Of a stretch of DNA of 64,000 bases, positions 1,742 to 14,292 are shown piece after piece. Below the pieces are notes generated by a model. It had not been told where the DNA came from. It ran no database searches and saw nothing but the letters and a program-made list of their open reading frames with translations. The position numbers and the translations under genes are program-made. This DNA comes from Candidatus Latescibacterota bacterium (GTDB lineage: Bacteria > Latescibacterota > UBA2968 > UBA8231). The stretch spans positions 608,001 to 672,000 of the forward strand of contig CBDCDC010000001.1 of NCBI GenBank assembly GCA_965215195.1. Direction: 5' to 3'. Numbering within the stretch: the stretch's first letter is position 1; each line of letters opens with the position of its first letter.

Positions 1742-1789
1742 GAAAACTCTCAAGGATTGGTAGTGGGTCACGTTGAATTTTTACGCGAG

Positions 1790-2153
1790 TCTTGGGACGC
1801 CGCTCAGGGCGTCGACGCGGCGGGCGAGGTAGTGGCGTTGGACGCGGCCCTACGGGCGAGTCGACAAAATCGTGCTGCTATTGGGGGTGGAGGACTCGGT
1901 CGTGGTGGATACCCAAGACGCGCTATTAACCAATGGTGCTAGTGAGTTGACCGCGGTCAAGGTAGTTCCTACGCCGCGGGTATCCCACCTTCCAGCGAAG
2001 GAGCGTCCCATGACCACGGCCAAGTTTATAATAGCCCTCTTCTATCGGATCGACAACCCGATGGGCGATGTGCCCAAACACCCCAAGCCGCTTTATATCC
2101 CAGCGAAACGGTGCCGCTGGCGGTTTGGTTATTAGTGTGCGCGAAGGGGGCGG
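1790..2153 (+). pseudogene. Remnant of mannose-1-phosphate guanylyltransferase (ManC-like) C-terminus, interrupted by an IS remnant
   Basis: Reads KIVLLLGVEDSVVVDTQDALL | insertion | VCAKGA, resembling the ManC C-terminal ..IGVEDLIVVDTPDALLVC.K motif; frameshifted upstream. Confidence 0.6.
1929..2129 (+). mobile_element. Internally deleted IS982-like insertion sequence (201 bp)
   Basis: Begins ACCAATGGTGCTAGT, ends TTGGT, flanked by TATTA direct repeats (1924-1928, 2130-2134). Encodes a transposase N-terminal fragment MTTAKFIIALFYRIDNPMGDVPKHP. The uninterrupted allele is seen at 14240-14268. Confidence 0.65.
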
Positions 2154-2154
2154 C

Positions 2155-2198
2155 TTAGCATGGAGCAGCTAAAAGATTAGCATGGAGCAGCTAAAAGA
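2155..2198. repeat. 22 bp perfect tandem duplication TTAGCATGGAGCAGCTAAAAGA x2 at the island's left edge
   Basis: Direct reading. Confidence 0.9.
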
Positions 2199-2224
2199 GA
2201 AATATCGCTAGGCTTCTTAGGGCG

Positions 2225-2716
2225 TCATCCTTCCCGAGAATCGCTGCCCAGTTCCTCGTCGAATAGCCGTTTGGCTTGGGTAGCGGCCCATTGCTCGCAG
2301 GCGTGTGCTGCTTGGGTGGTCGGCTCGCGAACATCCGGGGGGACAGAAAGACCGAGTTTGCCAAGCGCGACTTCCACCGCTTTTTGGAGTTGTTGTTGCT
2401 CCCATCGCCATGCGTCGGAATCGAGATACAGAATCGGCATGGCCAGTACTTCCTCTTGGCCAGCGAGCAGCTTCTGCAAGACAGCCCGCGATGCCCCACG
2501 ACGGTTGCGTTCGAGCCCAAGCTCGTAGCAGAGCATCTCATCGCGGTAGGTCTCCACCCGCTGTTGGACGAAGGAGCATTGCTCTGGGGAGGGGGGATGG
2601 CTTATGAGATCTGGGGTTGGCGTACTAGTGCTACGACGCCTATAGCAATAGTATATAGCGCCGCCTGCAATGAGCGCAGTACCGGCGGCCAAAATCACGA
2701 GACTCGTCGTATTCAT
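2225..2716 (-). CDS. Hypothetical protein with N-terminal membrane anchor; last gene of the dynamin operon
   Basis: 163 aa, hydrophobic LVILAAGTALIAGGAIYY followed by RRR; start directly abuts the upstream stop (TAAATG). Confidence 0.75.
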   Translation of the reverse strand: MNTTSLVILAAGTALIAGGAIYYCYRRRSTSTPTPDLISHPPSPEQCSFVQQRVETYRDEMLCYELGLERNRRGASRAVLQKLLAGQEEVLAMPILYLDSDAWRWEQQQLQKAVEVALGKLGLSVPPDVREPTTQAAHACEQWAATQAKRLFDEELGSDSREG

Positions 2717-4705
2717 TTAGGCACTCCTCGCTGGTTCATATTCAGCTTTAAGTAGTTCTACTTGCAGTTTTCGCCGATCCAATTCCACAAGCTGATCGTC
2801 AATCTCTTGCCGCTTGTCCTCATCCGACGAAATTGTTTCTTGCAACTCTTCTAACACCTTCTGCTTCTTTTCGAGAATGTACTGACACCTCCCTTCCATT
2901 GTCCTAAGAGCCTCTTGTCCGTGATTATTCAACTCTCTACCAATGTGATCAGAGAGTTTGTCAAGCTCCTTTTGCAGAAGCGACTCAAGGTCAGAGTCCA
3001 ACTTCTTAACAGCATCATCTTTGCCTGCCTGCGTATCCCAAACCCTCTGCCACCAAGTAGTTGCAGCTTTCACAGTGTCCTGCAGAGTCTCAAAATTAAG
3101 AGCGATTTCCAGTTCCGCTTCTACACGCTTACAAATGGTATTAGCCGAGATCGGCAGTAAATGATACTGTGATCCCTGATCAAAGGAGAATCCACTTGCC
3201 AACAATTTCTCTGAGAGATCATTCTCTGTCTGATTGAGCGTGTCTTCGATTGTACGCACAATATCCCTGATAGCTTGTGCGAGAACGTTGCGATGCTTAT
3301 ATAGATGGTTCCCAATACCCATCGCCATTCCTGCCATATTAGCGATTTTCTTCACACTGCGAAGGTCGTCTTTGATCCCTTGCAAAACCTTACTAATCGT
3401 TTTATTGATGCTCTCTTGCAGGGGCCCTTGTGCTTCGTCAAGACTCTTCTCGAAATGCTTCCTCGCGTTCCTGACAACTGAAGCTATCGAAACAATGTTT
3501 GTTCTTATCCGAGCGAGTTCTTCGTTGCGCTCTTCTTGCGATGCGTTAATAGCATCGAGATTAGTCGTCAATATCGCCTTGTCTTGAGAGATGCCTACAG
3601 CGGCATTTTCAAAGACGCTGTCCAAACGCCTTTGATGTGCCTCGATAATACTATCGCCTTTGGTGGAGATGATTCGTTGTTCAATGACATTGCGAAGTCG
3701 TTCCATACCGTGCTGCTCCGGCTCCAGATAGCCCTTGCCGTCTAGCTCCCTTTCATACCATGTTAAATCATCGGACAGGGGGCGGCCTGCTTCCTGCATG
3801 GCAGCAATAAGCCCACCGAGGCTGCTGACGAGTACAATCTGGTCGTCATCTCCAAACAGTGCCTTCATCCTCAGGTCGTCACTATCCCGGATCTTCCGAA
3901 TGTGACTCCAAATGGCCTCTTTGTTGGGTTGACTGTCGCACTTGTTCACCGCGATGATGCGCCGCTGGGGATTGATGTGTGCCAAGTACTCGTCGATAAA
4001 TTTCACGTCCGAACCAGTCATGCCGGCTTGCCCGGCAAAAGTAACGTACACCACAGCGTCGGCCCGCTCAATCCACTCGCGAGTGATTTTGTCGCGCACC
4101 GGGTTCGGATCATTGGTTCCGGGGGTATCGGCTACGGTCACCTGATGCAGCCACGGACGATCCGCCCATAATCGCACAGAGTTGACATACGCACTGTATG
4201 TGCCCCCGCGGCTACATATCGCCGCAAACTGGTGCAGCTTATCGAGACCGTCCTCGGAAATGACGCGAGCCGGGTTGGTGAGCAGGTCGGATTCCTTGAG
4301 CCCTTCCGCACGAGCAGTTTCTCGCGCCTCAGCCAGTTCCTGCGCGGAGCGTTCATCTTGCTTGCTTCCTTCCTTCACTTGGTTAAACTCGTCACACGTG
4401 TACAGGGTGGCCTCAACTCGCTCTGCTTCACTTTCACTCCCTTCCATGAGTGCGATCTTGGCCGTCATGGTCGTAACGTGACTCGGTAGTATCTCCTCCG
4501 AGAAAAGCAGGGCGTTGAGCAGAGTCGATTTCCCGCTGTTCATCTCGCCACATACTGCCACGACGAAGCGACCTTCTTGTAGGTTGGATTTTGCCTCCTG
4601 AAGTGCCTCCACGTCTGCCGTTAGCAATTCATGGTTTTCAACGACGCGGTCGTACCACTCACAGATAGTCGCTTGGTACTTTTGGTACGCTTGGAAGTTT
4701 TTCAT
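2717..4705 (-). CDS. Bacterial dynamin-like GTPase (third in operon)
   Basis: G1 GEMNSGKS, G2 HVTTMT, G3 DTPG, G4 NKCD; long helical C-terminus. Confidence 0.9.
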   Translation of the reverse strand: MKNFQAYQKYQATICEWYDRVVENHELLTADVEALQEAKSNLQEGRFVVAVCGEMNSGKSTLLNALLFSEEILPSHVTTMTAKIALMEGSESEAERVEATLYTCDEFNQVKEGSKQDERSAQELAEARETARAEGLKESDLLTNPARVISEDGLDKLHQFAAICSRGGTYSAYVNSVRLWADRPWLHQVTVADTPGTNDPNPVRDKITREWIERADAVVYVTFAGQAGMTGSDVKFIDEYLAHINPQRRIIAVNKCDSQPNKEAIWSHIRKIRDSDDLRMKALFGDDDQIVLVSSLGGLIAAMQEAGRPLSDDLTWYERELDGKGYLEPEQHGMERLRNVIEQRIISTKGDSIIEAHQRRLDSVFENAAVGISQDKAILTTNLDAINASQEERNEELARIRTNIVSIASVVRNARKHFEKSLDEAQGPLQESINKTISKVLQGIKDDLRSVKKIANMAGMAMGIGNHLYKHRNVLAQAIRDIVRTIEDTLNQTENDLSEKLLASGFSFDQGSQYHLLPISANTICKRVEAELEIALNFETLQDTVKAATTWWQRVWDTQAGKDDAVKKLDSDLESLLQKELDKLSDHIGRELNNHGQEALRTMEGRCQYILEKKQKVLEELQETISSDEDKRQEIDDQLVELDRRKLQVELLKAEYEPARSA

Positions 4706-6660
4706 CAGAATGTATGCTCCTTCATTTTATTGATCCGTTCTTGGAGTCTGCTCAATTCTTCGGTTTTTTTCGCAACCTCCACTTCACTTCTTTCTGTGGT
4801 GCTGATGACGGCTCCCTTCAGTCCATCTATCACCTCCTGAATAACCAGAACACTGATGTTGTCTCCCCGAGACGCAAAATATTCGATTATACGTTCCAAG
4901 TGCTGGTCTCTAGAAACTTCGGCCTCATATTCGTACTGCCAGAATTTCCCTTTCCCTCTCTTTCTTTTTTTATGCTGCGTCCATTCATTTTCTTGAAAAG
5001 ATTGTACTGTTTCTTGAACTGCTTTGCGAATCAGATCGAGAAAATTTTCCTTCAGATGCTCAACAGCTTGTTGAGGCGTGAAGTCGAAGTTGATATCAAG
5101 AGATCGTTTTAAGTATGAAAGTAGCCCTTGATATATTCCATATATACGATGCCAATTATCGTGCTTATCCATTACGTCAGGTGCTATGTCTAAGTAAACG
5201 CGAACTTGATAATATACAGTATCCGAAAAAAACCCCTCTTCAGTGCGTTTGTTTTTGGTAGTTATTTCAATAGGTATATCTGAAAAAATCTCGTTGACAA
5301 GCTTAAGCGTATCGTACTTCGCTTTTTCGATAGCTTCAAGTGCGGTCTCTTGGCGTCTAGTTTCATCACCACCATCACCTTCTCCGGCAGACCCACTTAG
5401 TGCTTTCTCTAAATCAGAAAGCGTCGTTTGCCAGTCCTCTCGCAGTTGCAAGGTGTTGCGCTCAAATTGCTGTTCAAGCAAGACGTGTCGTTCTGCAGAC
5501 ACCTGCTTCACCATCTCGGCAAGTTGTTTGCGGGACGCCAGTCCCGAATTCGATGAGACGGGCACATCGTACACGTTGCCGCTGATATCGAGTCGGTAAC
5601 TCTGTATCGTCCGTTTGGCCGAGATATTTTCTCGAAATGACTGGCGCTCCTCGTATGCAGATCGCATACGCTGCATGGCGATGTCCAGCGGGTCAAGCAA
5701 TGCCTCATCTTCGGCTTCACTCAACTGCAACGCAGAGACAAGCACGACATCGCGAAAACGTTCGTCGTGTAACTCTTCGCATACACGCTTCACTTCGGTA
5801 CGTTGTGATGGCGGCAATCCTTCAGCCTTGTTGAGCAAGAGAAATACGGGTTGACGAGACTCATTGGTCGAATTTTGCGAAATCCGATCTAATTGGTCCA
5901 ACAGCGTATTTGATGGATTCCCCTTATTGGCATCCGTAAGTACGAACAGCACGTCCGATCCCTTGACTGCTTCTTCGGTCACTCTGGTATCATTCACATT
6001 TGGAGGTGGGGCATTAAACCCAGGCGTATCGACAAGCCGAATATGATCAAGAACCGGAGAATTTACCGCAATGCGAAAGGTATTCGGCTCGCTGTCGCCT
6101 TCTTTTTTATGCTGAGCCAACGCACGATACTTCGATTTATCCAGAGCGATCCACGTTCCGTCCGCCAATCCCTGCTCAAAACGTTCCTCGCCGCCATGGA
6201 CGAAGTGCGTTACGGATGCGGTCGTTGGTTCATCGCCAACCGGGCACATATCCATTTCCAAGAGTGCATTGATGAACGTCGATTTACCCGCATTAAAGTC
6301 GCCGACCACCGAGACGGTCAAACGACCGATACCGTCTCGATGCTCTCGTTGCTCAGCAAGGTGGTCAGTCAGGCTCCTCTCCAAGGAATCCAACTTATGC
6401 TCGAGCTCGCCGGTCAAAAGATTGAGTTCAGCATCTGCAAACTGATCTCGAACGGACCGCAAGGCGAGGAGACACTCAATCGTCTCGTTGAGCTCTGTCC
6501 CATCCGATCTCGCATTGGAGGCGACAAAGCCCTGCTTATCAGCAGATCGGGCTTTGGCTTTGGCCTTGGGTTTGGCCTTGGCCTTGGGCTTGGCTTTGGG
6601 CTTGGCTTTGGCTTTGACTTTGGCTTTGGCCTTGACTTTGGCTTTGGGCTTGGGCTTCAT
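4705..6660 (-). CDS. Bacterial dynamin-like GTPase (second in operon) with N-terminal Lys/Ala/Pro repeat tail
   Basis: G1 GDFNAGKS, EPTT, G3 DTPG, G4 NKAE; N-terminus MKPKPKAKVKAKAKVKAKAKPKAKPKAKAKPKAKAKAR; ATGA overlap with the upstream gene. Confidence 0.9.
   Translation of the reverse strand: MKPKPKAKVKAKAKVKAKAKPKAKPKAKAKPKAKAKARSADKQGFVASNARSDGTELNETIECLLALRSVRDQFADAELNLLTGELEHKLDSLERSLTDHLAEQREHRDGIGRLTVSVVGDFNAGKSTFINALLEMDMCPVGDEPTTASVTHFVHGGEERFEQGLADGTWIALDKSKYRALAQHKKEGDSEPNTFRIAVNSPVLDHIRLVDTPGFNAPPPNVNDTRVTEEAVKGSDVLFVLTDANKGNPSNTLLDQLDRISQNSTNESRQPVFLLLNKAEGLPPSQRTEVKRVCEELHDERFRDVVLVSALQLSEAEDEALLDPLDIAMQRMRSAYEERQSFRENISAKRTIQSYRLDISGNVYDVPVSSNSGLASRKQLAEMVKQVSAERHVLLEQQFERNTLQLREDWQTTLSDLEKALSGSAGEGDGGDETRRQETALEAIEKAKYDTLKLVNEIFSDIPIEITTKNKRTEEGFFSDTVYYQVRVYLDIAPDVMDKHDNWHRIYGIYQGLLSYLKRSLDINFDFTPQQAVEHLKENFLDLIRKAVQETVQSFQENEWTQHKKRKRGKGKFWQYEYEAEVSRDQHLERIIEYFASRGDNISVLVIQEVIDGLKGAVISTTERSEVEVAKKTEELSRLQERINKMKEHTF
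6550..6657 (-). repeat. Degenerate hexamer repeat encoding KA/KP/KV
   Basis: GCTTTG/GCCTTG/GGCTTG units in tandem on the + strand. Confidence 0.9.
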
Positions 6661-8375
6661 GCCTGACCAACCTTTCGGAGCCGGGCGATATCGGCGTCGA
6701 TGCGCGACACCTTGTCGGTGCGATCTTTGAGATCGTCTCGCCGCTCTTCTTCAAGCTGAGACAGCGTACTCTGTACTTCTTCAAGCTCGTGCTCTAGAGG
6801 TTGAAATAGTTCAGACTCAAAGTATGCCTCGATATTCCGCATCGCTTGCGTCGAAAATTCCTGGCGGATACGAGCCATTGGCTCGGCGAGGCGCTTGTTT
6901 TTCCACCACTCCCCCACAAAGTCGCTGGCGATGTTGGCCGGATTAATCTCATGCAAGGTGGTAAGAATCCTTCTTCCTACGCTCTTGAGCCCTTCGGAGG
7001 TTGCGACTTTTACCGCTGTTTCGGTCCCTGCCTTGGCCGCCGTTTTGGCGGCGGCGGCCCGCAATGCCGCACCGCCGGTCGCCTCCCCGGCCGTGGCAGC
7101 CAAACCAGCAGCGGGACTTATCGCGGTAAACAGGGCTGCCGTAGCCAAGGTGGCTCCCAAGCTCACAATTTTGTCAGTGTCTTTCAGTAAGGTCTCGATC
7201 TCCGTCATGTCAATCCCTGCGTCATGGAGATCCAGTTGTTGTCCCAGCTTAGCAAAGTGATTTCTAACCGTTGTTGCGAGTGCAGCGGTGAACTCGCCAC
7301 TGACCTGTTCTATGGCGAGATCGTCCGACGTAGCGGCGAAGCGCACCTGATATTGGTCGCATATTGCCCGCGCTTCCCGGCTAAGATCGTTGCGCACCTG
7401 ATCGAGACGTTGCTGGTGCTGATGTAGCTCTCGGTCCAGTCTCTTGCGTTGCTCATCCACATTTTTCTTACGCAACGCAAAATCTTCTTTCGACTCTAGC
7501 AAGCCACCGCGCATCTGCTCAAGCAGTGATATGGTACGCGGCACCAAGCGCACACTAGCCCGGTGTTGTCGTTCGGCCATAAGGGACGCCTTGCGACCTT
7601 CAAACACCTCTTGGATGGCGGTGCGTAAAGCACTGACGTCACGCACGGCCGCCTCTGGGCCAGCCCTGACGACCACAATGCGGCCCTCAGCTTCTGATTT
7701 CGCGCAGCCGATAGTCTGTGCCAGCGTGTCGGTAGTCTTCTCGGCTACCGTCGTATGCTCATGATCTGGAAGTTGGTCGGCAAATGTGAGCGCAATGAGA
7801 AAGCGATGCTGTAGGTGGCGGACGCCGGGAGAAGTGAGAAAGTCGGTGACGGTACTCGTCAAGCCGCCCTTGCGAATATCCATACAAATCACAGCGGCAT
7901 CTACGAAGGGGAGCTCGCCCAATGTGATTTCCGTGTGTTCCTCAATGAGGGTCGATAGTCCCGGCGTGTCGAGGAATACGAATCCTGCTGGAAACCCGGG
8001 ACGGGACGGTAGGCGGACGAGCGGACGTCCCGGCGTGTGCCCGCGGGCGAGATCATCGAAATCGGGGCGGTTGATTGCCGTCTGCGCACCCTCGTCGTCC
8101 ACGCGAAAATAGGCCGGCTCTTCAAGAGAAGGCACTGAAACCACCTGTCCGGCCCGCGCTGTACAGGGCTCAACCTGCGCGGGCATGAGATCTTCCATGC
8201 CTACCAACTCATTGATCAGCGTACTTTTACCACTGCTGAAGTCCCCCAGAAAGCCTATCTGCACCGCGTCATCGCTCGTAAGGCTCTGGATATCGTCGGC
8301 CAATATGTCCAAGTCCCACCGCGAGGCTACCTCGCGCAGTGTCTCCAATGCCGTTGAGCCACGTTGTTCTGTCAT
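6657..8375 (-). CDS. Bacterial dynamin-like GTPase (first in operon; LeoA/CrfC-like)
   Basis: G1 GDFSSGKS, PCTA, G3 DTPG, variant G4 TFAD; hydrophobic paddle LGATLATAALFTAISPAAGLAA. Start placed at ATG 8375 downstream of AGGAG (ORF track start 8456). Confidence 0.88.
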   Translation of the reverse strand: MTEQRGSTALETLREVASRWDLDILADDIQSLTSDDAVQIGFLGDFSSGKSTLINELVGMEDLMPAQVEPCTARAGQVVSVPSLEEPAYFRVDDEGAQTAINRPDFDDLARGHTPGRPLVRLPSRPGFPAGFVFLDTPGLSTLIEEHTEITLGELPFVDAAVICMDIRKGGLTSTVTDFLTSPGVRHLQHRFLIALTFADQLPDHEHTTVAEKTTDTLAQTIGCAKSEAEGRIVVVRAGPEAAVRDVSALRTAIQEVFEGRKASLMAERQHRASVRLVPRTISLLEQMRGGLLESKEDFALRKKNVDEQRKRLDRELHQHQQRLDQVRNDLSREARAICDQYQVRFAATSDDLAIEQVSGEFTAALATTVRNHFAKLGQQLDLHDAGIDMTEIETLLKDTDKIVSLGATLATAALFTAISPAAGLAATAGEATGGAALRAAAAKTAAKAGTETAVKVATSEGLKSVGRRILTTLHEINPANIASDFVGEWWKNKRLAEPMARIRQEFSTQAMRNIEAYFESELFQPLEHELEEVQSTLSQLEEERRDDLKDRTDKVSRIDADIARLRKVGQA

Positions 8376-8424
8376 CGTATTCCGTATTCTCCTGTTTGAT
8401 CCACCAATGGGCATAAGAATGCAG

Positions 8425-8509
8425 CGACCCAGCAGGGTGCCGGGCCATGTAGCCATCTCACAGGTTTTTCGGAGAAGTTCTGCCTATTCGCCGGGCTTCA
8501 GGGAATGGG
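8425..8509 (-). repeat. Conserved leader, copy A (upstream of the dynamin operon)
   Basis: Near-identical to 13000-13095, with a 28 bp identical core AGTTCTGCCTATTCGCCGGGCTTCAGGG (8476-8503 = 13052-13079). Confidence 0.9.
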
Positions 8510-8619
8510 CTTTCTCTCGCGGACAGAAAACACCTTGTGCGTTTCCCGTTCAAAACCCGCAAAGTGGTCTATAATAAGTTTTAAGAGCGTTTCTAAAGCT
8601 CAGAACAAGTCTTAATCTA

Positions 8620-8817
8620 CTAGGAAAAGACTGCAATCAACAAGACAAACAATACGAGGATGATTACAGACGCTATGGTTATACAACCCACTGCTTGGTT
8701 GATTCCTTTTGCACTCTCCTCGACGAATCCTTTAGCCTCTCTTTTTCCTCGAAAAATTCGCAGGTACACCGCTCGAATCCCTACGATAAGGACTACAAAG
8801 AGCAAGACTTCCACCAT
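8620..8817 (-). CDS. Small 2-TM membrane protein
   Basis: 65 aa with two hydrophobic segments; AGAGG RBS upstream. Confidence 0.6.
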   Translation of the reverse strand: MVEVLLFVVLIVGIRAVYLRIFRGKREAKGFVEESAKGINQAVGCITIASVIILVLFVLLIAVFS

Positions 8818-8867
8818 AGCTATACCTCTCTGGTTTTTTGGCCCTGATTGAGGCGTAAAGTCAGTTA

Positions 8868-9695
8868 TTAAAACACTTCGCCCACCATCAGCTTATAGAA
8901 CCGAGATTCCACGGCTCGCAAACGATCCTGATAGAGCTTTTTATCCGTTGGGCCAGTTGAATCAAAAACTCGCACGAAAAATCGGCATTTTTTCGATTTA
9001 GACCACTCAAACAATTCAGATGTTGCAGAGAGAAAAGACTGTTCCGGTATATCTTGATCCAAGACGATATTTTGAATGGGTAGCATCTGCCGTTCATCCG
9101 CTCGATGCGGTAGATTGGTTGCCCGGACGATCAGACCAGTGGGTGTTAGATTCACATCGTATATGTACTCAATAGTTCCATCGTCGAGCGTCCAGCAGGA
9201 CGGAACTTCGGTGCCTTTGCCTGCTGAGTATTCCCGCACCAACTCCAACAGCTTCTCTACATTCCTCTCGCCATCCGGTAGAAGCTCCCGAACGGTTGAG
9301 TACTCACGTCCCAATTCTAGCGTATTTACTATGGTTTCCGGTTCTGACAAGAATCCGGCCGCTTCTGCAGTACTCTGAAGCCTTGTAAGCTGTTGCTTGG
9401 CATCGCGGAGAAGTACTAGTTCCCGCTGCAATTCCTCGATATTCTTATCACCACTGGGCAATATCTCTTGAATAGCAGAAAACTGCTCCTCAAGTTGCTC
9501 CTCAAGTAGGGTGATTGTTTCTTGGCGTTCCTCTGCTACTCGCTCGGCTTCCTTCTGCTTGTCTTGTTGGCGCACCAACAAGGCGGCAAAGGCGAGCAGC
9601 AGAACGAAGATGATAAGAATGGCGATCTCAGCCATGGTGAGGCCGAGGATGAGACCTTGCCGATAGGCAGAGGTCTGCTTTTCAAGATTTGCCAT
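8868..9695 (-). CDS. MotB/ZorB-like single-TM protein with coiled coil and a non-OmpA C-terminal domain
   Basis: N-terminal GLTMAEIAILIIFVLLL has an acidic residue at the position of the MotB/ZorB YAD Asp; heptad region; C-terminal PSCW...CRFF domain; overlaps the MotA-like gene. Confidence 0.55.
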   Translation of the reverse strand: MANLEKQTSAYRQGLILGLTMAEIAILIIFVLLLAFAALLVRQQDKQKEAERVAEERQETITLLEEQLEEQFSAIQEILPSGDKNIEELQRELVLLRDAKQQLTRLQSTAEAAGFLSEPETIVNTLELGREYSTVRELLPDGERNVEKLLELVREYSAGKGTEVPSCWTLDDGTIEYIYDVNLTPTGLIVRATNLPHRADERQMLPIQNIVLDQDIPEQSFLSATSELFEWSKSKKCRFFVRVFDSTGPTDKKLYQDRLRAVESRFYKLMVGEVF

Positions 9696-10713
9696 CTTGA
9701 CGGGCTAGCCATGCTCCAAAACGGGCTAGCCATGCCCTAAAATGCGAGGAACTAGCGTGTAGTTCTTGTTTGTTCATGCTTGTCTCTGGGGATAGTATTT
9801 CTTTTGGAATCTGCACATTGTTGAGTCGGTTGGCGAGATTTTCTCCGGCCTTGCTGATTTGTTCAGCTCCGATTTCAAGGCTCTGTATGGAGGGACGTAG
9901 AAGTTGTTCAAGGAGGTCTTCGGGCACTTGCAAGTGGTTGATTTTATCAACGAGGTCGCTCGCGGCCACTGACTCCGAAACGGCTTGTATCGCACCTACG
10001 CTAGCAGACACTGCGTCCGAACTGGCTTTTAATGCACTGTCGAGATTCGACACTTGTGCGTTGAGATCGGATACGGTATTGACGAAACTATCGAGGTTGA
10101 CCTGCAACTGCTCGCGACTTTCTTCAACGGTTTTGGTGAAGTGAGTAACTGATGCCTCGAACTGAGAAATAGCTTTCTCTTGTCTGTCGCGGCTCTCTCT
10201 GAGAATTTGCGCTAGCTCTGTTCTAAAGTTTGAAAACTCTCCTAATTCACCCTTGAGTGTAGATATTCTCTCTCTGAGATCGGATACCGCATTGCCGAGA
10301 TCGGATACCGCATTGCCGAAATTGGATACCTTTTCTTTTTGGGCTTCGCCTTCTTCGGATTGGTTAAAAAAGACCCGGAAAAAGATGCCAAATATCGTCG
10401 AAGCGATAGAGATGCCGAAGTTCGTAATGATCTGGGTAATTTTTCCGATAGATTCGTCAATGAGGGAAAATTCAAAAAGCGATACCCCCAAGCTGACGAG
10501 GGTATATAAAAATCCAAGGTAATAGAGGTTATCGCCAGCTTTACCGCGCAGGGATTGCGGCTTGCTGCCATACGTTACTGCATAGACCAACATAATCGCA
10601 ACAGGAAAGGCGGTTACGAAAAACTGATTCACATGGTGTTGCTTGAGAATTATGATCCCCACTGCTCCTATCAAGAAGCAGAAAAAAAGAAATGTTGGAC
10701 TTAGTTTATTCAT
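9682..10713 (-). CDS. MotA/TolQ/ExbB/ZorA-like membrane protein with long helical tail
   Basis: GDNLYYLGFLYTLVSL...NFGISIASTIFGIFFR matches the TM-pair pattern with two conserved Thr of 5:2 ion motors; ~220 aa amphipathic helical tail. Confidence 0.6.
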   Translation of the reverse strand: MNKLSPTFLFFCFLIGAVGIIILKQHHVNQFFVTAFPVAIMLVYAVTYGSKPQSLRGKAGDNLYYLGFLYTLVSLGVSLFEFSLIDESIGKITQIITNFGISIASTIFGIFFRVFFNQSEEGEAQKEKVSNFGNAVSDLGNAVSDLRERISTLKGELGEFSNFRTELAQILRESRDRQEKAISQFEASVTHFTKTVEESREQLQVNLDSFVNTVSDLNAQVSNLDSALKASSDAVSASVGAIQAVSESVAASDLVDKINHLQVPEDLLEQLLRPSIQSLEIGAEQISKAGENLANRLNNVQIPKEILSPETSMNKQELHASSSHFRAWLARFGAWLARQDGKS

Positions 10714-11507
10714 CAGTCATTCATCCCGGAGGTTCTAAGTACGCGTACTACTTGGCCTCCGTGCTGCGAGAGCCAAGACTGGAAGAATTTCAAGAGGGGG
10801 CCGCCATCTCCCTGCTGCCATTGCCGTCTCTGAACGAGCCATAGCTCTATATCGACGCCGCGCAGATCAGGGTTTAGACCGCGAGATTCATGGGTGTGCT
10901 GGAAGCGGCTGAAATCGGGCGGCTCTCGATAGAACGAACATGCGTCGCTGTTTTGTAGAAGGTCTGAAATAATGATGAGACGCCGCGGGACATTGCGACG
11001 TTTGGTATCTTGAAAATGCGTTAGAGAAACCGACTGCACGGACTCCATAATTGGCGACGATGGTGCTTCCTTTTCGTCGAGCAGGGTTTGCAGCACTTCT
11101 TCCAGAGGCTGCCGGAACTTCTGCTGCCAGTTTCGACGAACTATTGCTTGGGATTGGATTAGCGGATCGACGTTTTCTGGATCGCCGGGATTGCAAACCT
11201 TAATGATCGGCTCAAGGCCATGTTCGTGCGTGGATTCCACCGTAAAAAGACTGATTTCGTGATTTTCTTTGACCGTACCTAACAGGTTCTGGATCTGAAC
11301 CTTCAGATCGTCCTTGGTCTGAGCACCAAAGGAATCGGTGCGATCGAGTAGAAAGGCCGTAATCGAATATGGCCCTTCGGTTCTGCAAAGGGTTACGGGA
11401 TCGCGGATGATAGGCTCGGGTTTTAATAATACAAGAGCAACCACAGCCCCTACACCTAGGACGATCATCCCCCCACCTGCGATGTAGTATAGTAGCTTTA
11501 ACGACAT
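10713..11507 (-). CDS. Membrane-anchored vWA-like domain protein
   Basis: N-terminal TM; LLDRTDS (DxSxS-like MIDAS), SPIMES, RRLIIISDLLQNS. Confidence 0.65.
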   Translation of the reverse strand: MSLKLLYYIAGGGMIVLGVGAVVALVLLKPEPIIRDPVTLCRTEGPYSITAFLLDRTDSFGAQTKDDLKVQIQNLLGTVKENHEISLFTVESTHEHGLEPIIKVCNPGDPENVDPLIQSQAIVRRNWQQKFRQPLEEVLQTLLDEKEAPSSPIMESVQSVSLTHFQDTKRRNVPRRLIIISDLLQNSDACSFYREPPDFSRFQHTHESRGLNPDLRGVDIELWLVQRRQWQQGDGGPLLKFFQSWLSQHGGQVVRVLRTSGMND

Positions 11508-11552
11508 GCCAGTTCTTTCCGCTTGTTTTTTGTCTCGGAGTTGGTAACTGGG

Positions 11553-12938
11553 CTATTCAGTTGGCGTTGGTAGGCGGTGCGGGGCCAATCTCCGCAAATC
11601 CCTACGGAGAACATCGTACTCTTTTTGCAACTCCTGTTCGCCGTTATTAACGTCTGTTGTCGCCTTAGAAATGATCTCTAAAATTTCTTCGCGTTTCAGC
11701 AATTCCTCCGGCAAGGTATCGTCTATTGGCGATAGTTCTTCCATTTCCCACTTATCATTGAAGCGAGCAGGTGCTTCTCCTCCTCGTCTCGCACGGTTGA
11801 CCTCTCGGTAGCGCTTGAGCAAATCGTTTCCTGCCCGCTCCAAGTGGTTGAGGTAATCCTCATACGATTTGATAACGTGCCTATGTCCGTCTAAGATAGA
11901 AGCGCGTTCCCTTTCCGAGCCCAAGAGTCCTTGCTTGATGCTATTTAGCTTTCCGACGGCTTCATTAAATATCGCTTTTAGTTCTTTTTCGTGATTGTCA
12001 TAAGCATCTTTGTATTTTTTATATTCACCATCTTTACCATGATAGCGAAAGAACACCTTGCTATAACCGGGGTAGGGATCGCCAGCCCATTTTATGCCAT
12101 CGATAAAGCTAATGATTGCAAACAGGAAACCCATGCAGAACAGCATCCACGACTGGAAGTCCCTTAGCCCCAATGGATTCTCGCGAAAAGCGGACATGGC
12201 GAGCTGCCCGCCTTCGTCGAGCATGGTCCCCGTTATTTCTCGATAGTGTGCAACCATTAGGTTAAAGAAGAATGCAAAGAGTATAAATGCAGTTGCAGCG
12301 AGGATGCCCGCAGACTTTCTACTCCACTCAACATGGTAACAGTTGGTAATGATCCGCCCGAGTAAGAAAGCGATGCCGAGATTGGCAAACGAAATAACAA
12401 CAGCCTCAGTATAGGCACCGAATAGGCCCAGTTCGTTGCCCTTTGCCAGAAAGGATGCGTTGCCCAAGGTCTCAATGAGAAAGAGCACGGCGATAATACC
12501 TGCAAGAAATATATTGTATCCATCGCCGTGCTTACTCGCCTCGCGACTCAGGTTATTCCTGTTCTGAAAATTAGTCAAGCGATCTTCTGCTTTTTTTAGC
12601 GGACTTTGCTTTGCTCGCAAATCCGTAGCAGCACTTTCAGCCTTCTCCTTGAGCTTTGCTTTACCATGGCGAACTTCGCCACCAATAGAGTGCTTGCGGA
12701 ATTCCGGGTCGAGGTCGATAAGACGCTTGCGGTATGAAGCTAATTCTTCATCGGCTCTATCCTTTACGTTTGACTGATATTCTTCGATCCGCCCGACAAT
12801 CTCGGTTTCGGTGTTATCGAGGTCTGTACTGTCTAGCGAAGGCAATCCTTGTTTCGCTGCTTCTTCAGCTTCTTCTACTATATGCACATTCTCTACTATC
12901 TTATCTATCTCGATTTTCTTAAACAGGTCAGTTGACAT
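11553..12938 (-). CDS. Four-TM membrane protein with N- and C-terminal coiled coils
   Basis: 461 aa; four hydrophobic segments in the middle; PYPGY motif; GGAGG upstream. Confidence 0.8.
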   Translation of the reverse strand: MSTDLFKKIEIDKIVENVHIVEEAEEAAKQGLPSLDSTDLDNTETEIVGRIEEYQSNVKDRADEELASYRKRLIDLDPEFRKHSIGGEVRHGKAKLKEKAESAATDLRAKQSPLKKAEDRLTNFQNRNNLSREASKHGDGYNIFLAGIIAVLFLIETLGNASFLAKGNELGLFGAYTEAVVISFANLGIAFLLGRIITNCYHVEWSRKSAGILAATAFILFAFFFNLMVAHYREITGTMLDEGGQLAMSAFRENPLGLRDFQSWMLFCMGFLFAIISFIDGIKWAGDPYPGYSKVFFRYHGKDGEYKKYKDAYDNHEKELKAIFNEAVGKLNSIKQGLLGSERERASILDGHRHVIKSYEDYLNHLERAGNDLLKRYREVNRARRGGEAPARFNDKWEMEELSPIDDTLPEELLKREEILEIISKATTDVNNGEQELQKEYDVLRRDLRRLAPHRLPTPTE

Positions 12939-12999
12939 CGCATGGTCCTCCGCATGGGTTTACTTAACTACCTAGTAGCGTCGTACATTAAAGATGAGA

Positions 13000-13095
13000 C
13001 GACCCCGCAGGGTGCCGGGCCAAGTGTATATCTCACAGGTTTTTTTAGAACAGTTCTGCCTATTCGCCGGGCTTCAGGGCGTGTGCAGGAATGGG
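13000..13095 (-). repeat. Conserved leader, copy B (upstream of the motor/vWA operon)
   Basis: Matches 8425-8509 in the same orientation. Confidence 0.9.
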
Positions 13096-13125
13096 TGAAA
13101 GCGAATCCACGATATATTTTCCGGG

Positions 13126-13698
13126 CTACCAACCGCAGTAGTGCAGGACCTTACCAGCCAGTTCCGTAACCCCTTTCAAGGGCACCTCGGCCATCACAAA
13201 GTCGCCATCCCACTTCGACATAACGCTGATGATCATACGGTCATAGAGCAAAAAGGGGGCGATCATGTCAGAATGAAGGCCCAAGAGGGTAGCCTTAGGT
13301 ATAGTCCACTGTTGGGACCCCTCCGTTTCGTACATACGACGCTCCTGTTGCCCCGTCTTGGGAAAGCCAATCACGACCGGGTAGTAGTCTAGTGGGCCAA
13401 CACGGCGTCTATTGGTTGAAAACTGGGGTGCCTTGTCAAAATCCAAAGACAGGGCGAGGCTTGTTGTCGGGTGGTCAGGATTGCAAGACAACATCACGGT
13501 CATCCGAGTCTTTATCCGATTCTTTAGCCAGTCTTCATGCTCTATGATGCGGACCGGGATGCCTTTTATCTGGACAACATAGTATTCGTTGTCTGTTTGG
13601 TCATCTCGGCCATGGGCTAAGTGCCAACCCGTCTGCGCAAGGGCCTCGGTGGGGCAGACGCCAAGCACAACGAGGACGATAATGCGTCCGTAGGACAT
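13126..13698 (-). CDS. Secreted hypothetical protein
   Basis: 190 aa with signal-peptide-like N-terminus ending ALA-Q. Confidence 0.65.
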   Translation of the reverse strand: MSYGRIIVLVVLGVCPTEALAQTGWHLAHGRDDQTDNEYYVVQIKGIPVRIIEHEDWLKNRIKTRMTVMLSCNPDHPTTSLALSLDFDKAPQFSTNRRRVGPLDYYPVVIGFPKTGQQERRMYETEGSQQWTIPKATLLGLHSDMIAPFLLYDRMIISVMSKWDGDFVMAEVPLKGVTELAGKVLHYCGW

Positions 13699-13793
13699 AG
13701 AGCCCCCTAAATTGGATGGGTGCTGGATATATTAAGACGGTGATGGAGCGGAAAACGCATCGACACTACCGCCTTCGGCTCCCGAGGGAGCCG

Positions 13794-13936
13794 GGCAGTG
13801 TCAAACTCGCGCAAGTTTTTGTGCGGGAATCCCTGCGTATTTACCCAAGAGTTGGGAGCTACCCAACCGCTCTTGAAACAGGCTATTGTATTCGGCAGGC
13901 CACCCGACAGGACGGTAGCACGAGTTTGACAGTCCC
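13794..13936. mobile_element. MITE-like element with IS256-like terminal inverted repeats
   Basis: GGCAGTGTCAAACTCGCGC versus reverse complement of the right end GGGACTGTCAAACTCGTGC (16/19 match); no target-site duplication seen. Confidence 0.45.
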
Positions 13937-14173
13937 AAGAAAATAGAGCAGGAAAAGATGGGATGCAAATTCTTTTTTTAGAACGCATACTAAGTACACG
14001 ACAGTAGGACCTTGCCCTCGATCCCGGACTCATCGCCCATCAACGACAAGTTATTGGTGTCGTGTAGTTAGAACGCATGAATAGAGTGCCCCAGCCTACG
14101 CGCTTGGTGCTCTATTCAACAAACCCTTGAAGAAATTTCAAAACGTACCGCTACCAAAAAATCGCCTGCCGAC

Positions 14174-14268
14174 GGACGCGGCCCTACGGGCAGGCCGACA
14201 AAATCGTGCTGCTATTGGGGATAGAGTGGATACCCAAGACGCGCTATTAGGGTGCGCGAAGGGGGCGG
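14174..14268 (+). repeat. Right-hand imperfect direct repeat of the manC remnant (island boundary)
   Basis: GGACGCGGCCCTACGGGC..CGACAAAATCGTGCTGCTATTGGGG...GTGGATACCCAAGACGCGCTATTAG.GTGCGCGAAGGGGGCGG matches 1840-1928 plus 2135-2153. Confidence 0.9.
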
Positions 14269-14292
14269 TGCAGCAGGTGAAAGACGCGGGGT

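What the first reader, a model, noticed from the sequence alone, without database searches (positions are those of the whole stretch)
2225..13095. Candidate undescribed envelope defence system: ion-motor/vWA operon and triple-dynamin operon under one shared leader
Seen: an AT-richer island with two co-oriented, tightly coupled operons, each starting 50-62 nt downstream of the same ~85 bp sequence. Operon 1 encodes a 4TM coiled-coil protein, a vWA-like protein, a MotA/ZorA-like protein and a MotB/ZorB-like protein. Operon 2 encodes three dynamin-like GTPases and an anchored protein. Known: Zorya uses a ZorAB 5:2 motor as a phage sensor with separate nuclease/helicase effectors, and dynamin-like proteins (Eleos LeoA/LeoBC, Bacillus DynA) limit phage spread. 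Inference: here a motor-type sensor is paired with membrane-remodelling GTPases instead of nucleases. I do not recognise this combination from named systems.
Basis: partly seen in the sequence, partly recalled or inferred. Interest (0 to 1): 0.85.

Follow-up and report, generated by a model that had tools for sequence, protein, structure and literature searches.

The report
Two independent cassettes behind RNA leaders
The island is a hotspot where separate gene cassettes (a motor-like/vWA membrane module and an Eleos-type triple-dynamin module) have stacked up, each behind a copy or remnant of a previously undescribed structured RNA leader, rather than one new two-operon defence system.

Summary
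In detail: a low-GC island (about 1,800-14,300) carries two co-oriented minus-strand operons, each preceded by the same ~97-nt sequence. The gene calls are largely right. B has a vWA fold. C/D look MotA/MotB-like on weak but convergent evidence. F, G and H are dynamin-like GTPases that match the Eleos LeoA/LeoBC models.

The inference of one combined system is not supported. A-B-C-D is a self-contained cassette: all four genes in 77 of 80 loci from other genomes, contig cut in 3, and none of the 80 has a dynamin within 10 kb. F-G-H-I is a separate four-gene unit found elsewhere in sister genomes. In one sister genome it sits in this same hotspot with no A-D seen on its short contig.

The "leader" is the 3' third of a ~180-nt structured RNA with its own sigma-70-like promoter. 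It has 30 of 46 covarying pairs, hits 60 of 151 Latescibacterota genomes and has no Rfam match. It heads varied cargo: Mrr, HNH, secreted and membrane proteins. Both window leader copies lack the 5' half. A third, intact copy precedes gene J.

New here: the uncharacterised ABCD family, often next to a secreted SNase, and the RNA family.

The parts
14185..14289 (.). Right copy of the ~105-nt direct repeat that brackets the hotspot
   Evidence: The same repeat flanks the ABCD island in L017, L018 and L022. A third copy lies at G000:C2:4078190.
13753..13938 (-). Intact but diverged copy of the structured RNA element, heading gene J
   Evidence: Covariance model R1, 41.4 bits, E 1.6e-8 in the window. 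All helices form, including a perfect closing helix GUCAAACUC/GAGUUUGAC. The 108-aa ORF 13707-14033 overlaps it and is probably not a gene.
13126..13698 (-). J: 190-aa protein with an N-terminal signal-peptide-like segment; no family
   Evidence: No homologue in any fetched locus. Absent from L017, L018 and L022. Contigs in runs X1 and X5 join 13031 to 13704, which skips it.
12984..13086 (-). 5'-truncated RNA element (3' ~100 nt): the 'leader' of operon A-E
   Evidence: It starts at CCCTGAAG and lacks the promoter and the 5' strand of the closing helix.
11553..12938 (-). A: 461 aa, with a cytoplasmic coiled-coil N-terminus, 4 TM helices and a coiled-coil C-terminus; uncharacterised family
   Evidence: Sequence. 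No Pfam, NCBIfam or PADLOC hit. Atlas neighbours are unnamed clusters only. Present in 80 of 80 loci.
10713..11507 (-). B: N-terminal TM anchor plus a vWA-fold domain with two invariant Cys and a D-x-[TS]-D ... SP ... SD motif
   Evidence: AF2 model with pLDDT 86.3 and pTM 0.80. Foldseek against PDB gave 101 hits at E<=1e-3; the listed top hits are nearly all vWA-fold proteins. Alignment A3. One UniRef name reads 'VWA domain-containing protein'.
9682..10713 (-). C: 4-TM MotA/ExbB/TolQ-like core (residues 1-125) plus a long C-terminal coiled-coil tail
   Evidence: Invariant T71 and T106. hhalign register against the genome's own MotA_ExbB proteins, probability 3.7%, E 0.012. Foldseek top hits are TolQ, ExbB, PomA and MotA, but E>=0.14. 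Atlas rank 11 is a MotA/TolQ/ExbB cluster. ZorA hits cover the tail only. PF01618 does not detect it.
8868..9695 (-). D: MotB-like, with a single TM carrying an invariant Glu, a coiled-coil linker and a Cys-containing C-terminal domain
   Evidence: E23 is invariant in 24 of 24 sequences. 7 of 24 homologues carry an OmpA-type C-terminus instead (GHTDEQP ... RRRIEIR). Weak PF00691 hits. ZorB hit at 3.7e-5 over the TM region.
8620..8817 (-). E: 65-aa putative 2-TM protein
   Evidence: Non-homologous small membrane ORFs (three hydrophobic segments by my script) follow D in L017 and L022. Gene status is uncertain.
8409..8504 (-). 5'-truncated RNA element: the 'leader' of operon F-I
   Evidence: 95% identical to the ABCD leader of L017 and 94% identical to the full-length FGHI leader of G118.
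6657..8375 (-). F: dynamin-like GTPase, LeoA-like
   Evidence: PF00350 at 6.6e-10. PADLOC LeoA at 3.1e-19 over residues 130-565 against model positions 103-556 of 559. G1 reads GDFSSGKS and G3 DTPG; G4 is degenerate (TFAD), read.
4705..6660 (-). G: dynamin-like GTPase with a Lys/Ala/Pro-rich N-terminal repeat
   Evidence: PF00350 at 1.1e-20. LeoBC at 4.4e-13, GTPase part only. 12-nt tandem repeat at 6538-6675.
2717..4705 (-). H: dynamin-like GTPase, LeoBC-like
   Evidence: PF00350 at 6.1e-20. LeoBC at 1.6e-16 over residues 33-637 against model positions 65-562 of 601. NKCD G4 motif.
2225..2716 (-). I: 163-aa protein with an N-terminal TM anchor; conserved fourth gene of the dynamin operon
   Evidence: Follows H in L165-L169 and L171, and in the distant contig L204 (E 1.3e-12). 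No family.
1814..1924 (.). Left copy of the bracketing direct repeat (a further short piece lies at 2130-2160)

Best explanation
The region is a cassette hotspot, not one system. Three cassettes lie in tandem on the minus strand between ~105-nt direct repeats. Each is headed by a copy or remnant of one structured RNA element.

Cassette 1 is an intact RNA copy followed by J.

Cassette 2 is an RNA 3' fragment followed by A-B-C-D(-E). This is a widespread, self-contained and uncharacterised membrane module. I read it as an ion-driven stator-type pair: C is MotA/ExbB-like with a ZorA-like coiled-coil tail, and D is MotB-like with an invariant Glu in its pore helix and a periplasmic anchoring domain. 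These would work with a membrane-tethered periplasmic vWA protein (B) and a 4-TM coiled-coil protein (A). The complex is inferred, not shown. My committed guess for its role is envelope surveillance against incoming DNA or phage, often together with a secreted SNase nuclease. I put that at about 0.4. An envelope-homeostasis or force-transduction role is nearly as likely.

Cassette 3 is an RNA 3' fragment followed by F-G-H-I. This is a member or variant of the Eleos (LeoA/LeoBC) dynamin family, with three full-length GTPases and a small anchored protein. By homology it most likely acts through GTP-dependent membrane remodelling.

The RNA element consists of a sigma-70-like promoter, a ~135-nt multi-stem domain closed by a covarying helix, and a 3' hairpin. 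It most likely acts in cis as a regulatory leader. In this genome the copies before A and before F have lost the promoter and the 5' half. The 'shared leader' therefore reflects how cassettes are assembled or exchanged at this element. It does not show dedicated co-regulation of a two-operon machine.
For: ABCD is self-contained. A, B, C and D occur in the same order in 77 of 80 loci fetched through C. The other 3 are cut by a contig end after C. F, G or H homologues occur in 0 of 80. 369 stretches in 185,579 species genomes encode a C relative.

Sister genomes L017, L018 and L022 have leader-ABCD between the same flanks, with no J, E or FGHI.

FGHI is a conserved low-GC four-gene unit. It occurs twice in G136, once each in G133 and G138, and on two contig fragments of G118. 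G104 has G, H and I only. A 34%-identical metagenome contig, L204, keeps the same gene order.

G133 and G138 hold ABCD and FGHI about 1 Mb apart.

G118 has the full RNA element followed by FGHI, and its downstream flank is the one that follows ABCD in L017, L018 and L022.

Eleos HMMs hit the dynamins: F to LeoA at 3.1e-19, H to LeoBC at 1.6e-16, G to LeoBC at 4.4e-13.

RNA structure. On 15 intact copies, 97.4% of cells pair, and 12 pairs change on both sides against 5.3+-1.3 in shuffles (0 of 500 reach it; slid controls give 1-3). On 34 model-aligned copies, 30 of 46 pairs change on both sides against 18.5+-2.1 (0 of 500; slid controls give 8-17).

RNA distribution. BLAST finds the element in 14 of 30 sister genomes. 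Covariance model R1 finds it in 60 of 151 phylum genomes, with up to 9 copies per genome.

The cargo behind the RNA differs from place to place: HNH, Mrr (3 times), AAA+PD-(D/E)XK, LDL-repeat secreted proteins, WD40/metallopeptidase, Rce1-like proteases, an OMP barrel, another GTPase, and a 329-aa unknown protein (5 times).

SNase neighbours: 20 of 77 loci by clustering, and 19 of 141 nearest-neighbour ORFs by PF00565. RefSeq annotates a 'thermonuclease family protein' right after D on a Microvirga plasmid.
Against: The two operons are adjacent, co-oriented and carry the same RNA remnant in G000. Functional cooperation in this one genome cannot be excluded.

The MotA-like call for C rests on weak signals. 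PF01618 misses it. hhalign probability is only 3.7%. The best Foldseek E-value is 0.14.

Against a defence role for ABCD: most nearest neighbours elsewhere are housekeeping genes, and PADLOC hits among 141 neighbour ORFs are single-member families only. A 64-67% identical B paralogue is present in G000 and in 22 of 30 sister genomes. In G000 it sits among housekeeping genes with an A homologue but no C or D.

The 80 ABCD loci were selected through C, so 'always together' is conditional on C being present.

No RNA data exist. The cis-regulatory reading of the RNA rests on position and architecture only. The downstream-ORF tally looked at the same strand only, without a control.
Confidence: 0.75

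Rival explanations
1. One reading: one integrated envelope defence system. The ABCD motor senses infection and the three dynamins are its effectors, co-regulated by a dedicated shared leader.
For: The operons are adjacent, on the same strand and carry the same ~97-nt upstream sequence in G000. Both encode membrane-associated proteins. Zorya pairs a ZorAB motor with variable effectors (recalled knowledge; I did not read the Zorya paper).
Against: 0 of 80 ABCD loci have dynamins nearby. FGHI stands alone in G136 (twice), G133, G138 and L204, and sits in this hotspot in G118 with no A-D homologue on its contig. The leader also heads unrelated cargo. Both window copies are truncated remnants without a promoter.
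Confidence: 0.07
2. ABCD is not a defence module. It is an accessory envelope machine: a proton-motive-force-driven force transducer or envelope-homeostasis device, akin to Tol-Pal/Ton or to the TolQ-associated membrane-tethered vWA proteins proposed in PMC12204202. It merely happens to be carried on mobile DNA.
For: An A+B paralogue is near-ubiquitous in the genus and lies among housekeeping genes. Neighbours are mostly housekeeping. D variants carry peptidoglycan-binding OmpA-like domains. Passages of PMC12204202 describe inner-membrane-tethered vWA proteins syntenic with TolQ-like motors as putative force transducers.
Against: Distribution is patchy: 369 hits in 185,579 species genomes. The window copy lies in a low-GC island, in a hotspot that in sister genomes holds Mrr or HNH. 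There are plasmid copies between transposases. A secreted SNase is the recurrent neighbour.
Confidence: 0.4
3. The RNA element is not a cis-regulatory leader. It is either a free-standing small RNA gene or a recombination or target site of a mobile element, and cassettes simply insert next to it.
For: It has its own promoter and a 3' hairpin. It occurs in multiple copies per genome. It sits at cassette boundaries, and both window remnants are truncated at the same base, as a recombination joint would be. Contigs with cassette-level deletions exist.
Against: A same-strand ORF of at least 100 aa starts within 370 nt downstream in 22 of 30 loci (no control). The 3' strand of the closing helix abuts the 3' hairpin, as in riboswitch expression platforms. 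No integrase or transposase was seen next to the copies I examined. The 3' hairpin is not called terminator-like by the scan.
Confidence: 0.3
4. The repeat, or the tandem arrangement, is an assembly artefact of a metagenome-assembled genome.
For: The genome has 8.5% estimated contamination. Public contigs break exactly at the repeat copies, so none bridges them.
Against: The stretch is covered by contigs of runs from four studies: 30 of 30 depth bins in X1, X5 and X6, and 25 of 30 in X8. G118 independently shows leader-FGHI next to the same downstream flank. The two leader copies differ at about 15-20% of positions, so they are not a collapsed repeat.
Confidence: 0.03

Closest known systems
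Eleos (formerly the 'Dynamins' system; LeoA + LeoBC; the ETEC LeoABC operon)
   Same: Consecutive dynamin-like GTPase genes in a horizontally acquired island. F hits the LeoA HMM and H hits the LeoBC HMM over nearly their full lengths. The G1 and G3 GTPase motifs are intact in all three proteins (read).
   Different: There are three full-length dynamins (572, 651 and 662 aa) plus a conserved small anchored protein I. The described form has two genes, or a first gene split in two in ETEC (passages of bioRxiv 10.1101/2022.05.11.491447). G carries a Lys/Ala-rich N-terminal repeat. E-values are moderate (1e-13 to 1e-19), so these are distant relatives. No phenotype is known.
Zorya (ZorAB motor plus effectors)
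   Same: ABCD has a MotA-like subunit with a long C-terminal coiled-coil tail and a MotB-like partner. It is patchily distributed. A nuclease is a frequent neighbour, but it carries a signal peptide and so would be outside the cytoplasm.
   Different: ZorA and ZorB HMM hits are weak and cover only the tail (C, 2.1e-6) or the TM region (D, 3.7e-5). There is no ZorC, D, E, F or G homologue. The constant partners are a periplasmic vWA protein and a 4-TM coiled-coil protein. D has Glu where MotB-type proteins have Asp (the Asp is recalled and is also stated in the PMC12204202 passage).
TolQ-associated membrane-tethered vWA 'force transducers' (PMC12204202, passages read)
   Same: A single-TM-anchored periplasmic vWA protein is encoded with a MotA/TolQ-type motor gene.
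   Different: In that paper one class has TolQ plus two TolR-like genes and a TPR gene. In the other class the vWA protein itself replaces TolR. Here a separate MotB-like D is present, C has a long coiled-coil tail, and a 4-TM protein A is invariant. I did not test homology between B and those vWA proteins.
Riboswitch-type cis-regulatory leaders that occur in many copies per genome
   Same: Own promoter. A multi-stem junction with near-invariant loop and junction nucleotides. A strongly covarying closing helix directly abutting a 3' hairpin. Several copies per genome, upstream of varied genes.
   Different: No Rfam 15 family matches at E<=1. No ligand or signal is known. The cargo is dominated by envelope, secreted and defence-like genes rather than a metabolic pathway. 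The element also marks cassette boundaries.

Membership tests
Eleos (LeoA/LeoBC) | A LeoA-type dynamin-like protein detected by the PADLOC LeoA model | tested here: met
   F hits PDLC03839 LeoA at E 3.1e-19, residues 130-565 against model positions 103-556 of 559.
Eleos (LeoA/LeoBC) | An adjacent LeoBC-type dynamin-like protein | tested here: met
   H hits PDLC03841 LeoBC at E 1.6e-16, residues 33-637 against positions 65-562 of 601. G hits the same model at 4.4e-13 over the GTPase part only. PADLOC's own system-calling thresholds were not run.
Eleos (LeoA/LeoBC) | Two-gene architecture (or the first gene split, as in ETEC) | tested here: not met
   There are three full-length dynamins plus the anchored protein I. 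The four-gene unit is complete in 4 loci (L165-L168) and in the distant contig L204. G118 has it on two contig fragments (L170, L171), and L169 lacks F. I therefore file it as a variant.
Eleos (LeoA/LeoBC) | GTPase-dependent protection against phage | not testable with these tools
   G1 (GxxxxGKS/T) and G3 (DTPG) are intact in F, G and H. G4 is canonical in H only (read).
MotA/ExbB/TolQ (PF01618), protein C | Detected by the family HMM | tested here: not met
   No PF01618 hit at E<=0.1. A whole-genome PF01618 search finds 9 other loci but not C.
MotA/ExbB/TolQ (PF01618), protein C | Two pore-lining helices with conserved Thr (LGxxGT ... A.xTT.xG) | tested here: inconclusive
   T71 and T106 are invariant in 38 and in 21 sequences. 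hhalign places LGFLYT on GFLGT and ASTIFG on ITTATG of the genome's own MotA_ExbB proteins, but with probability 3.7% and E 0.012.
MotA/ExbB/TolQ (PF01618), protein C | Fold like solved stator A subunits | tested here: inconclusive
   Foldseek against PDB: ranks 1-3 and 6-8 are TolQ, ExbB, PomA and MotA, but the best E is 0.14 and TM-scores are 0.2-0.3. The model's pLDDT is 86-96 over residues 11-80 and 70.6 overall.
MotB/ExbD/TolR-type partner, protein D | A single N-terminal TM helix with an invariant acidic residue | tested here: met
   E23 is invariant in 24 of 24 sequences. It is Glu rather than the usual Asp.
MotB/ExbD/TolR-type partner, protein D | A C-terminal OmpA-like peptidoglycan-binding domain | tested here: not met
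   The window's D has a different, Cys-containing domain with no Pfam hit. 7 of 24 family members do carry an OmpA-type C-terminus, with sub-threshold PF00691 hits at E 0.006-0.009.
MotAB-type 5:2 complex (C with D) | The A and B subunits assemble 5:2 | not testable with these tools
Zorya | ZorA and ZorB detected over their cores, plus a ZorC/D, ZorE or ZorF/G effector | tested here: not met
   ZorA hits cover only the coiled-coil tail (2.1e-6). The ZorB hit covers only the TM region (3.7e-5). No effector model hits any island protein.
vWA domain, protein B | vWA (Rossmann-like alpha/beta) fold | tested here: met
   AF2 pLDDT 86.3. Foldseek gave 101 hits at E<=1e-3, and the listed ones are BatA/BatB, integrin I domains, vWF A1/A3, Sec23/24 and Rpn10. 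No Pfam vWA model hits.
vWA domain, protein B | Canonical MIDAS motif DxSxS ... T ... D | tested here: inconclusive
   D55-x-[TS]57-D58 is conserved, but the fifth position varies. S151-P152 and S181-D182 are invariant. Metal binding was not tested.
Any Rfam 15 RNA family (the leader element) | A covariance-model match | tested here: not met
   There were 0 relevant matches at E<=1 in window 1500-14600. The only hit was a plant miRNA model at E 0.25 on the opposite strand. There were 0 matches in 16 loci that contain copies of the element by BLAST.

The most novel reading that the evidence does not exclude
The 'shared leader' belongs to an undescribed, phylum-wide riboswitch-like RNA class. 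It gates, and perhaps helps to shuffle, exchangeable envelope and defence cassettes in Latescibacterota. One of those cassettes, ABCD, is a new Zorya-like family of ion-motor systems. It uses a periplasmic vWA protein as sensor and, in about a quarter of loci, a secreted SNase as effector against incoming DNA.
Probability: 0.2. Interest if true: 0.85.

Novelty: new variant of a known kind. Interest (0 to 1): 0.6.

Why it matters
The proposed motor-plus-dynamin super-system dissolves into modules, but three testable things remain.

1. A four-gene stator-like/vWA cassette is present in at least 369 species-level genomes across several phyla. No library names it. It would extend the range of 5:2-motor-based machines beyond flagella, Ton/Tol, gliding and Zorya.

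2. A four-gene, three-dynamin form of Eleos with a conserved membrane-anchored partner may help explain how bacterial dynamins are recruited to the membrane.

3. A strongly covarying ~180-nt RNA with its own promoter heads diverse envelope and defence cargo and marks cassette boundaries. It is a candidate new cis-regulator for a poorly studied phylum, and a handle on how defence hotspots are assembled.

Tried and rejected
Things tried that gave nothing usable, or that I rejected:

- Sigma-54 and CRP-like readings of the leader, done by eye. The spacings do not fit, so I dropped them.
- RNAalifold on the 3' fragment alone, using 18 copies. The covariation term was about 0. The structure only appeared once full-length copies were aligned.
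- The promoter and terminator scan of 1700-14400 found 9 promoter-like sites against 9.5 expected and 9 terminator-like sites against 14 expected. None lies at the leaders.
- Complex prediction with C(1-129) x4 plus D(1-70) x2 returned 'no answer' (score 0.16, mark 0.32). The stoichiometry was forced to 4:2 by the 6-chain limit. This is not evidence either way.
- The look-up of sequencing runs listed no RNA holder, so expression is untested.
- Read laying returned contigs only, and none bridges a leader copy.
- The profile of C against PDB sequences is dominated by generic coiled-coil hits. ZorA chains (8vvn_C, 8qyd_A) appear at about 2e-6 among them, so the result is not specific.
- The profile of B against PDB sequences gave nothing below E 0.7.
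- By eye, the ORF next to the second A-B locus looked like an S1/P1 nuclease. Pfam gives no hit, so I dropped it.
- The metagenome scan with the H alignment gave only 1 confirmed locus out of 269 pattern matches. The wider spread of FGHI is therefore unknown.
- The PADLOC tally on neighbour ORFs lists families with one member each. Several models may hit the same protein, so I could not turn it into a count of defence neighbours.
- Literature searches found no description of the ABCD cassette or of the RNA. Subscription journals are not covered.

Full report
OBSERVATION

The window has a low-GC stretch. GC is 0.42-0.58 from about 2,001 to 14,000, against 0.63-0.67 on both sides. All long ORFs in it lie on the minus strand:

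- J: 13126-13698
- A: 11553-12938
- B: 10713-11507
- C: 9682-10713
- D: 8868-9695
- E (small): 8620-8817
- F: 6657-8375
- G: 4705-6660
- H: 2717-4705
- I: 2225-2716

A ~97-nt sequence is repeated upstream of A (12989-13086) and upstream of F (8414-8510), at 80-85% identity. BLAST finds it nowhere else in the 6.13-Mb genome. J, E, a third RNA copy and the bracketing ~105-nt direct repeats (1814-1924 and 14185-14289) were missed.

THE PROTEINS

F, G and H each carry Dynamin_N, at E 6.6e-10, 1.1e-20 and 6.1e-20. They hit the PADLOC Eleos models: F to LeoA at 3.1e-19 over almost the whole model, H to LeoBC at 1.6e-16 over most of the model, and G to LeoBC at 4.4e-13 over the GTPase part.

A and B have no hit in Pfam, NCBIfam or PADLOC.

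B was modelled from 27 homologues (pLDDT 86.3, pTM 0.80). Foldseek against PDB gave 101 hits at E<=1e-3. Nearly all of the listed ones are vWA-fold proteins: BatA/BatB, integrin I domains, vWF A domains, Sec23/24 and Rpn10. B has an N-terminal TM anchor, two invariant cysteines and a partly MIDAS-like D-x-[TS]-D ... SP ... SD pattern.

C has four TM helices followed by a long coiled coil. The MotA/ExbB reading rests on several weak but concordant signals:

- T71 and T106 are invariant within LGFLYT and ASTIxG motifs.
- An hhalign register places these motifs on the GT and TT motifs of the genome's own MotA_ExbB proteins, but with only 3.7% probability.
- The top Foldseek hits are TolQ, ExbB, PomA and MotA, but E is at least 0.14.
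- An Atlas neighbour cluster is named MotA/TolQ/ExbB.
- The ZorA HMM hits cover only the tail.
- PF01618 itself does not detect C.

D has one TM helix with an invariant Glu (24 of 24 sequences). In 7 of 24 homologues it has an OmpA-type C-terminus. The window's D has a different Cys-containing domain.

I put C/D being a stator-type pair at about 0.7.

ARE THE TWO OPERONS ONE SYSTEM?

Using an alignment of C homologues, I fetched the 80 best of 369 related loci from one genome per species.

- A, B, C and D are all present, in that order, in 77 of the 80. In the other 3 the contig ends after C.
- None of the 80 has an ORF matching F, G or H at E<=1e-3 within up to 10 kb.
- The closest relatives, Latescibacterota MAGs L017, L018 and L022, share about 80% DNA identity and the same flanks. 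They have leader-ABCD only. J, E and FGHI are absent.

Conversely, H orthologues of 55-87% identity occur twice in G136, once each in G133, G138 and G104, and as fragments in G118. At these places the genes form an F-G-H-I low-GC unit. G104 has G, H and I only, and G118 has the unit on two contig fragments. A 34%-identical metagenome contig keeps the same four-gene order.

G133 and G138 have ABCD and FGHI about 1 Mb apart.

In G118, FGHI sits behind a full-length copy of the leader. Its downstream flank is the one that follows ABCD in L017, L018 and L022. No A-D homologue is seen on that contig, which ends 666 nt upstream of the leader.

The two operons are therefore exchangeable occupants of one hotspot, and in G000 they are stacked in tandem.

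THE LEADER

BLAST finds the ~110-nt leader in 14 of 30 sister genomes, at 1-3 copies each. It lies in front of ORFs unrelated to A-J: an HNH endonuclease, three Mrr-type restriction endonucleases, an AAA-ATPase with a PD-(D/E)XK domain, a DUF3368 protein and secreted LDL-repeat proteins.

Extending the copies upstream shows a larger unit:

- TTGACA-N17/18-TATCTT, a sigma-70-like promoter;
- then a ~135-nt multi-stem domain;
- then a 3' hairpin.

RNAalifold predicts 46 pairs. On 15 intact copies, 97.4% of cells pair. 12 pairs show changes on both sides, against 5.3+-1.3 in shuffles (0 of 500 reach it) and 1-3 in slid controls. 9 of the 14 pairs of the closing helix covary.

Covariance model R1 hits 60 of 151 genomes sampled from the phylum, with up to 9 copies per genome. 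In 34 model-aligned copies, 30 of 46 pairs show double changes, against 18.5+-2.1 in shuffles (0 of 500) and 8-17 in slid controls. That alignment is fitted to the model, which favours the structure.

Rfam 15 has no match at E<=1.

Further copies precede a 329-aa unknown protein (5 genomes, including G000 contig 2), WD40/metallopeptidase secreted proteins, Rce1-like proteases, an OMP barrel, a DUF6851 protein and another GTPase.

In the window, both copies before A and F begin at the same base (CCCTGAAG). They lack the promoter and the 5' strand of the closing helix. A third, diverged but complete copy lies at 13753-13938, in front of J.

The 'shared leader' is thus a remnant left at cassette joints. 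It is not a dedicated regulator of two operons.

WHAT ABCD MIGHT DO

The only recurrent neighbour elsewhere is a signal-peptide-bearing SNase (thermonuclease):

- 20 of 77 loci by clustering of the three nearest ORFs on each side;
- 19 of 141 nearest-neighbour ORFs by PF00565, plus 2 hits to Endonuclease_1;
- RefSeq annotates 'thermonuclease family protein' right after D on a Microvirga plasmid, where A-D are all 'hypothetical'.

Other neighbours are mostly housekeeping. PADLOC hits among them are scattered.

A second, 64-67% identical B homologue occurs in G000 (contig 2) and in 22 of 30 sister genomes. In G000 that locus has A and B homologues but no C or D, and it lies among housekeeping genes. 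I did not inspect the other genomes.

My best guess is a stator-driven, peptidoglycan-anchored envelope complex with a periplasmic vWA adaptor. It would act in surveillance against incoming DNA or phage (about 0.4), or in envelope homeostasis or force transduction (about 0.4).

COMPARISON AND NOVELTY

FGHI is a distant, four-gene variant of Eleos. The described system has two genes, and in ETEC its first gene is split in two (passages of bioRxiv 10.1101/2022.05.11.491447).

ABCD resembles Zorya in logic but fails the membership test. It also resembles the TolQ-linked tethered vWA proteins of PMC12204202 (passages) but differs in composition.

I found no paper describing ABCD or the RNA (search listings). 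Supplements and subscription journals were not seen.

CAVEATS

- The ABCD loci were selected through C.
- All MotA-like evidence for C is below conventional thresholds.
- No transcript data exist.
- Public contigs do not bridge the repeats.
- The complex prediction gave no verdict.

Noticed in passing
window 13753-13938 (-), and L174-L203: A structured RNA family of about 180 nt with its own promoter. It hits 60 of 151 Latescibacterota genomes, has strong covariation and has no Rfam match. The window holds one intact copy and two truncated copies.
   Followed up: yes
G000:C2:4613332-4614096 (L172 10327-12536): A second A+B pair (B 66% identical) with no C or D homologue within 10 kb, lying among housekeeping genes. 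A similar B paralogue is in 22 of 30 sister genomes.
   Followed up: partly
window 6538-6675: A 12-nt tandem repeat encoding a Lys/Ala/Pro-rich N-terminal extension (KPKAKAK...) of dynamin G. One public run shows a depth spike here, as expected for low-complexity sequence.
   Followed up: no
window 10276-10321: A 21-nt tandem duplication inside C's coiled coil (NAVSDLG repeated). A contig in run X6 lacks 21 nt at 10276, so tail length is polymorphic.
   Followed up: no
window 13031-13704, and 2194-14289: Contigs in runs X1 and X5 join 13031 to 13704 with 11 other letters between, which skips J. One X5 contig joins 14289 to 2194, which skips the whole island. These hint at cassette-level presence/absence variants in natural populations. 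They are metagenome contigs laid at 90% likeness and may come from relatives.
   Followed up: partly
L023 7369-7587; L026 5846-6079; L068 12183-12410; L076 11793-12035: In several non-Latescibacterota lineages a soluble ORF of about 75 aa with a shared ...NLRA.VL.R... motif overlaps the stop of D. It may be a fifth gene. It is unrelated to the window's 2-TM E.
   Followed up: no
window 1814-1924 and 14185-14289; G000:C2:4078190-4078307: A ~105-nt direct repeat brackets the hotspot here and in L017, L018 and L022. A third copy lies elsewhere in the genome. It may be an att-like or REP-like element.
   Followed up: partly
L170 4800-5304 (G118:C179): Upstream of the leader-FGHI unit in G118, an ORF begins MAEFDIVSKYLVHHYP... 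By recall it looks like an Rpn-family recombination-promoting nuclease or transposase. I ran no family search on it.
   Followed up: no
window 13707-14033 (-): A 108-aa ORF overlaps the intact RNA copy and is probably not a gene.
   Followed up: partly
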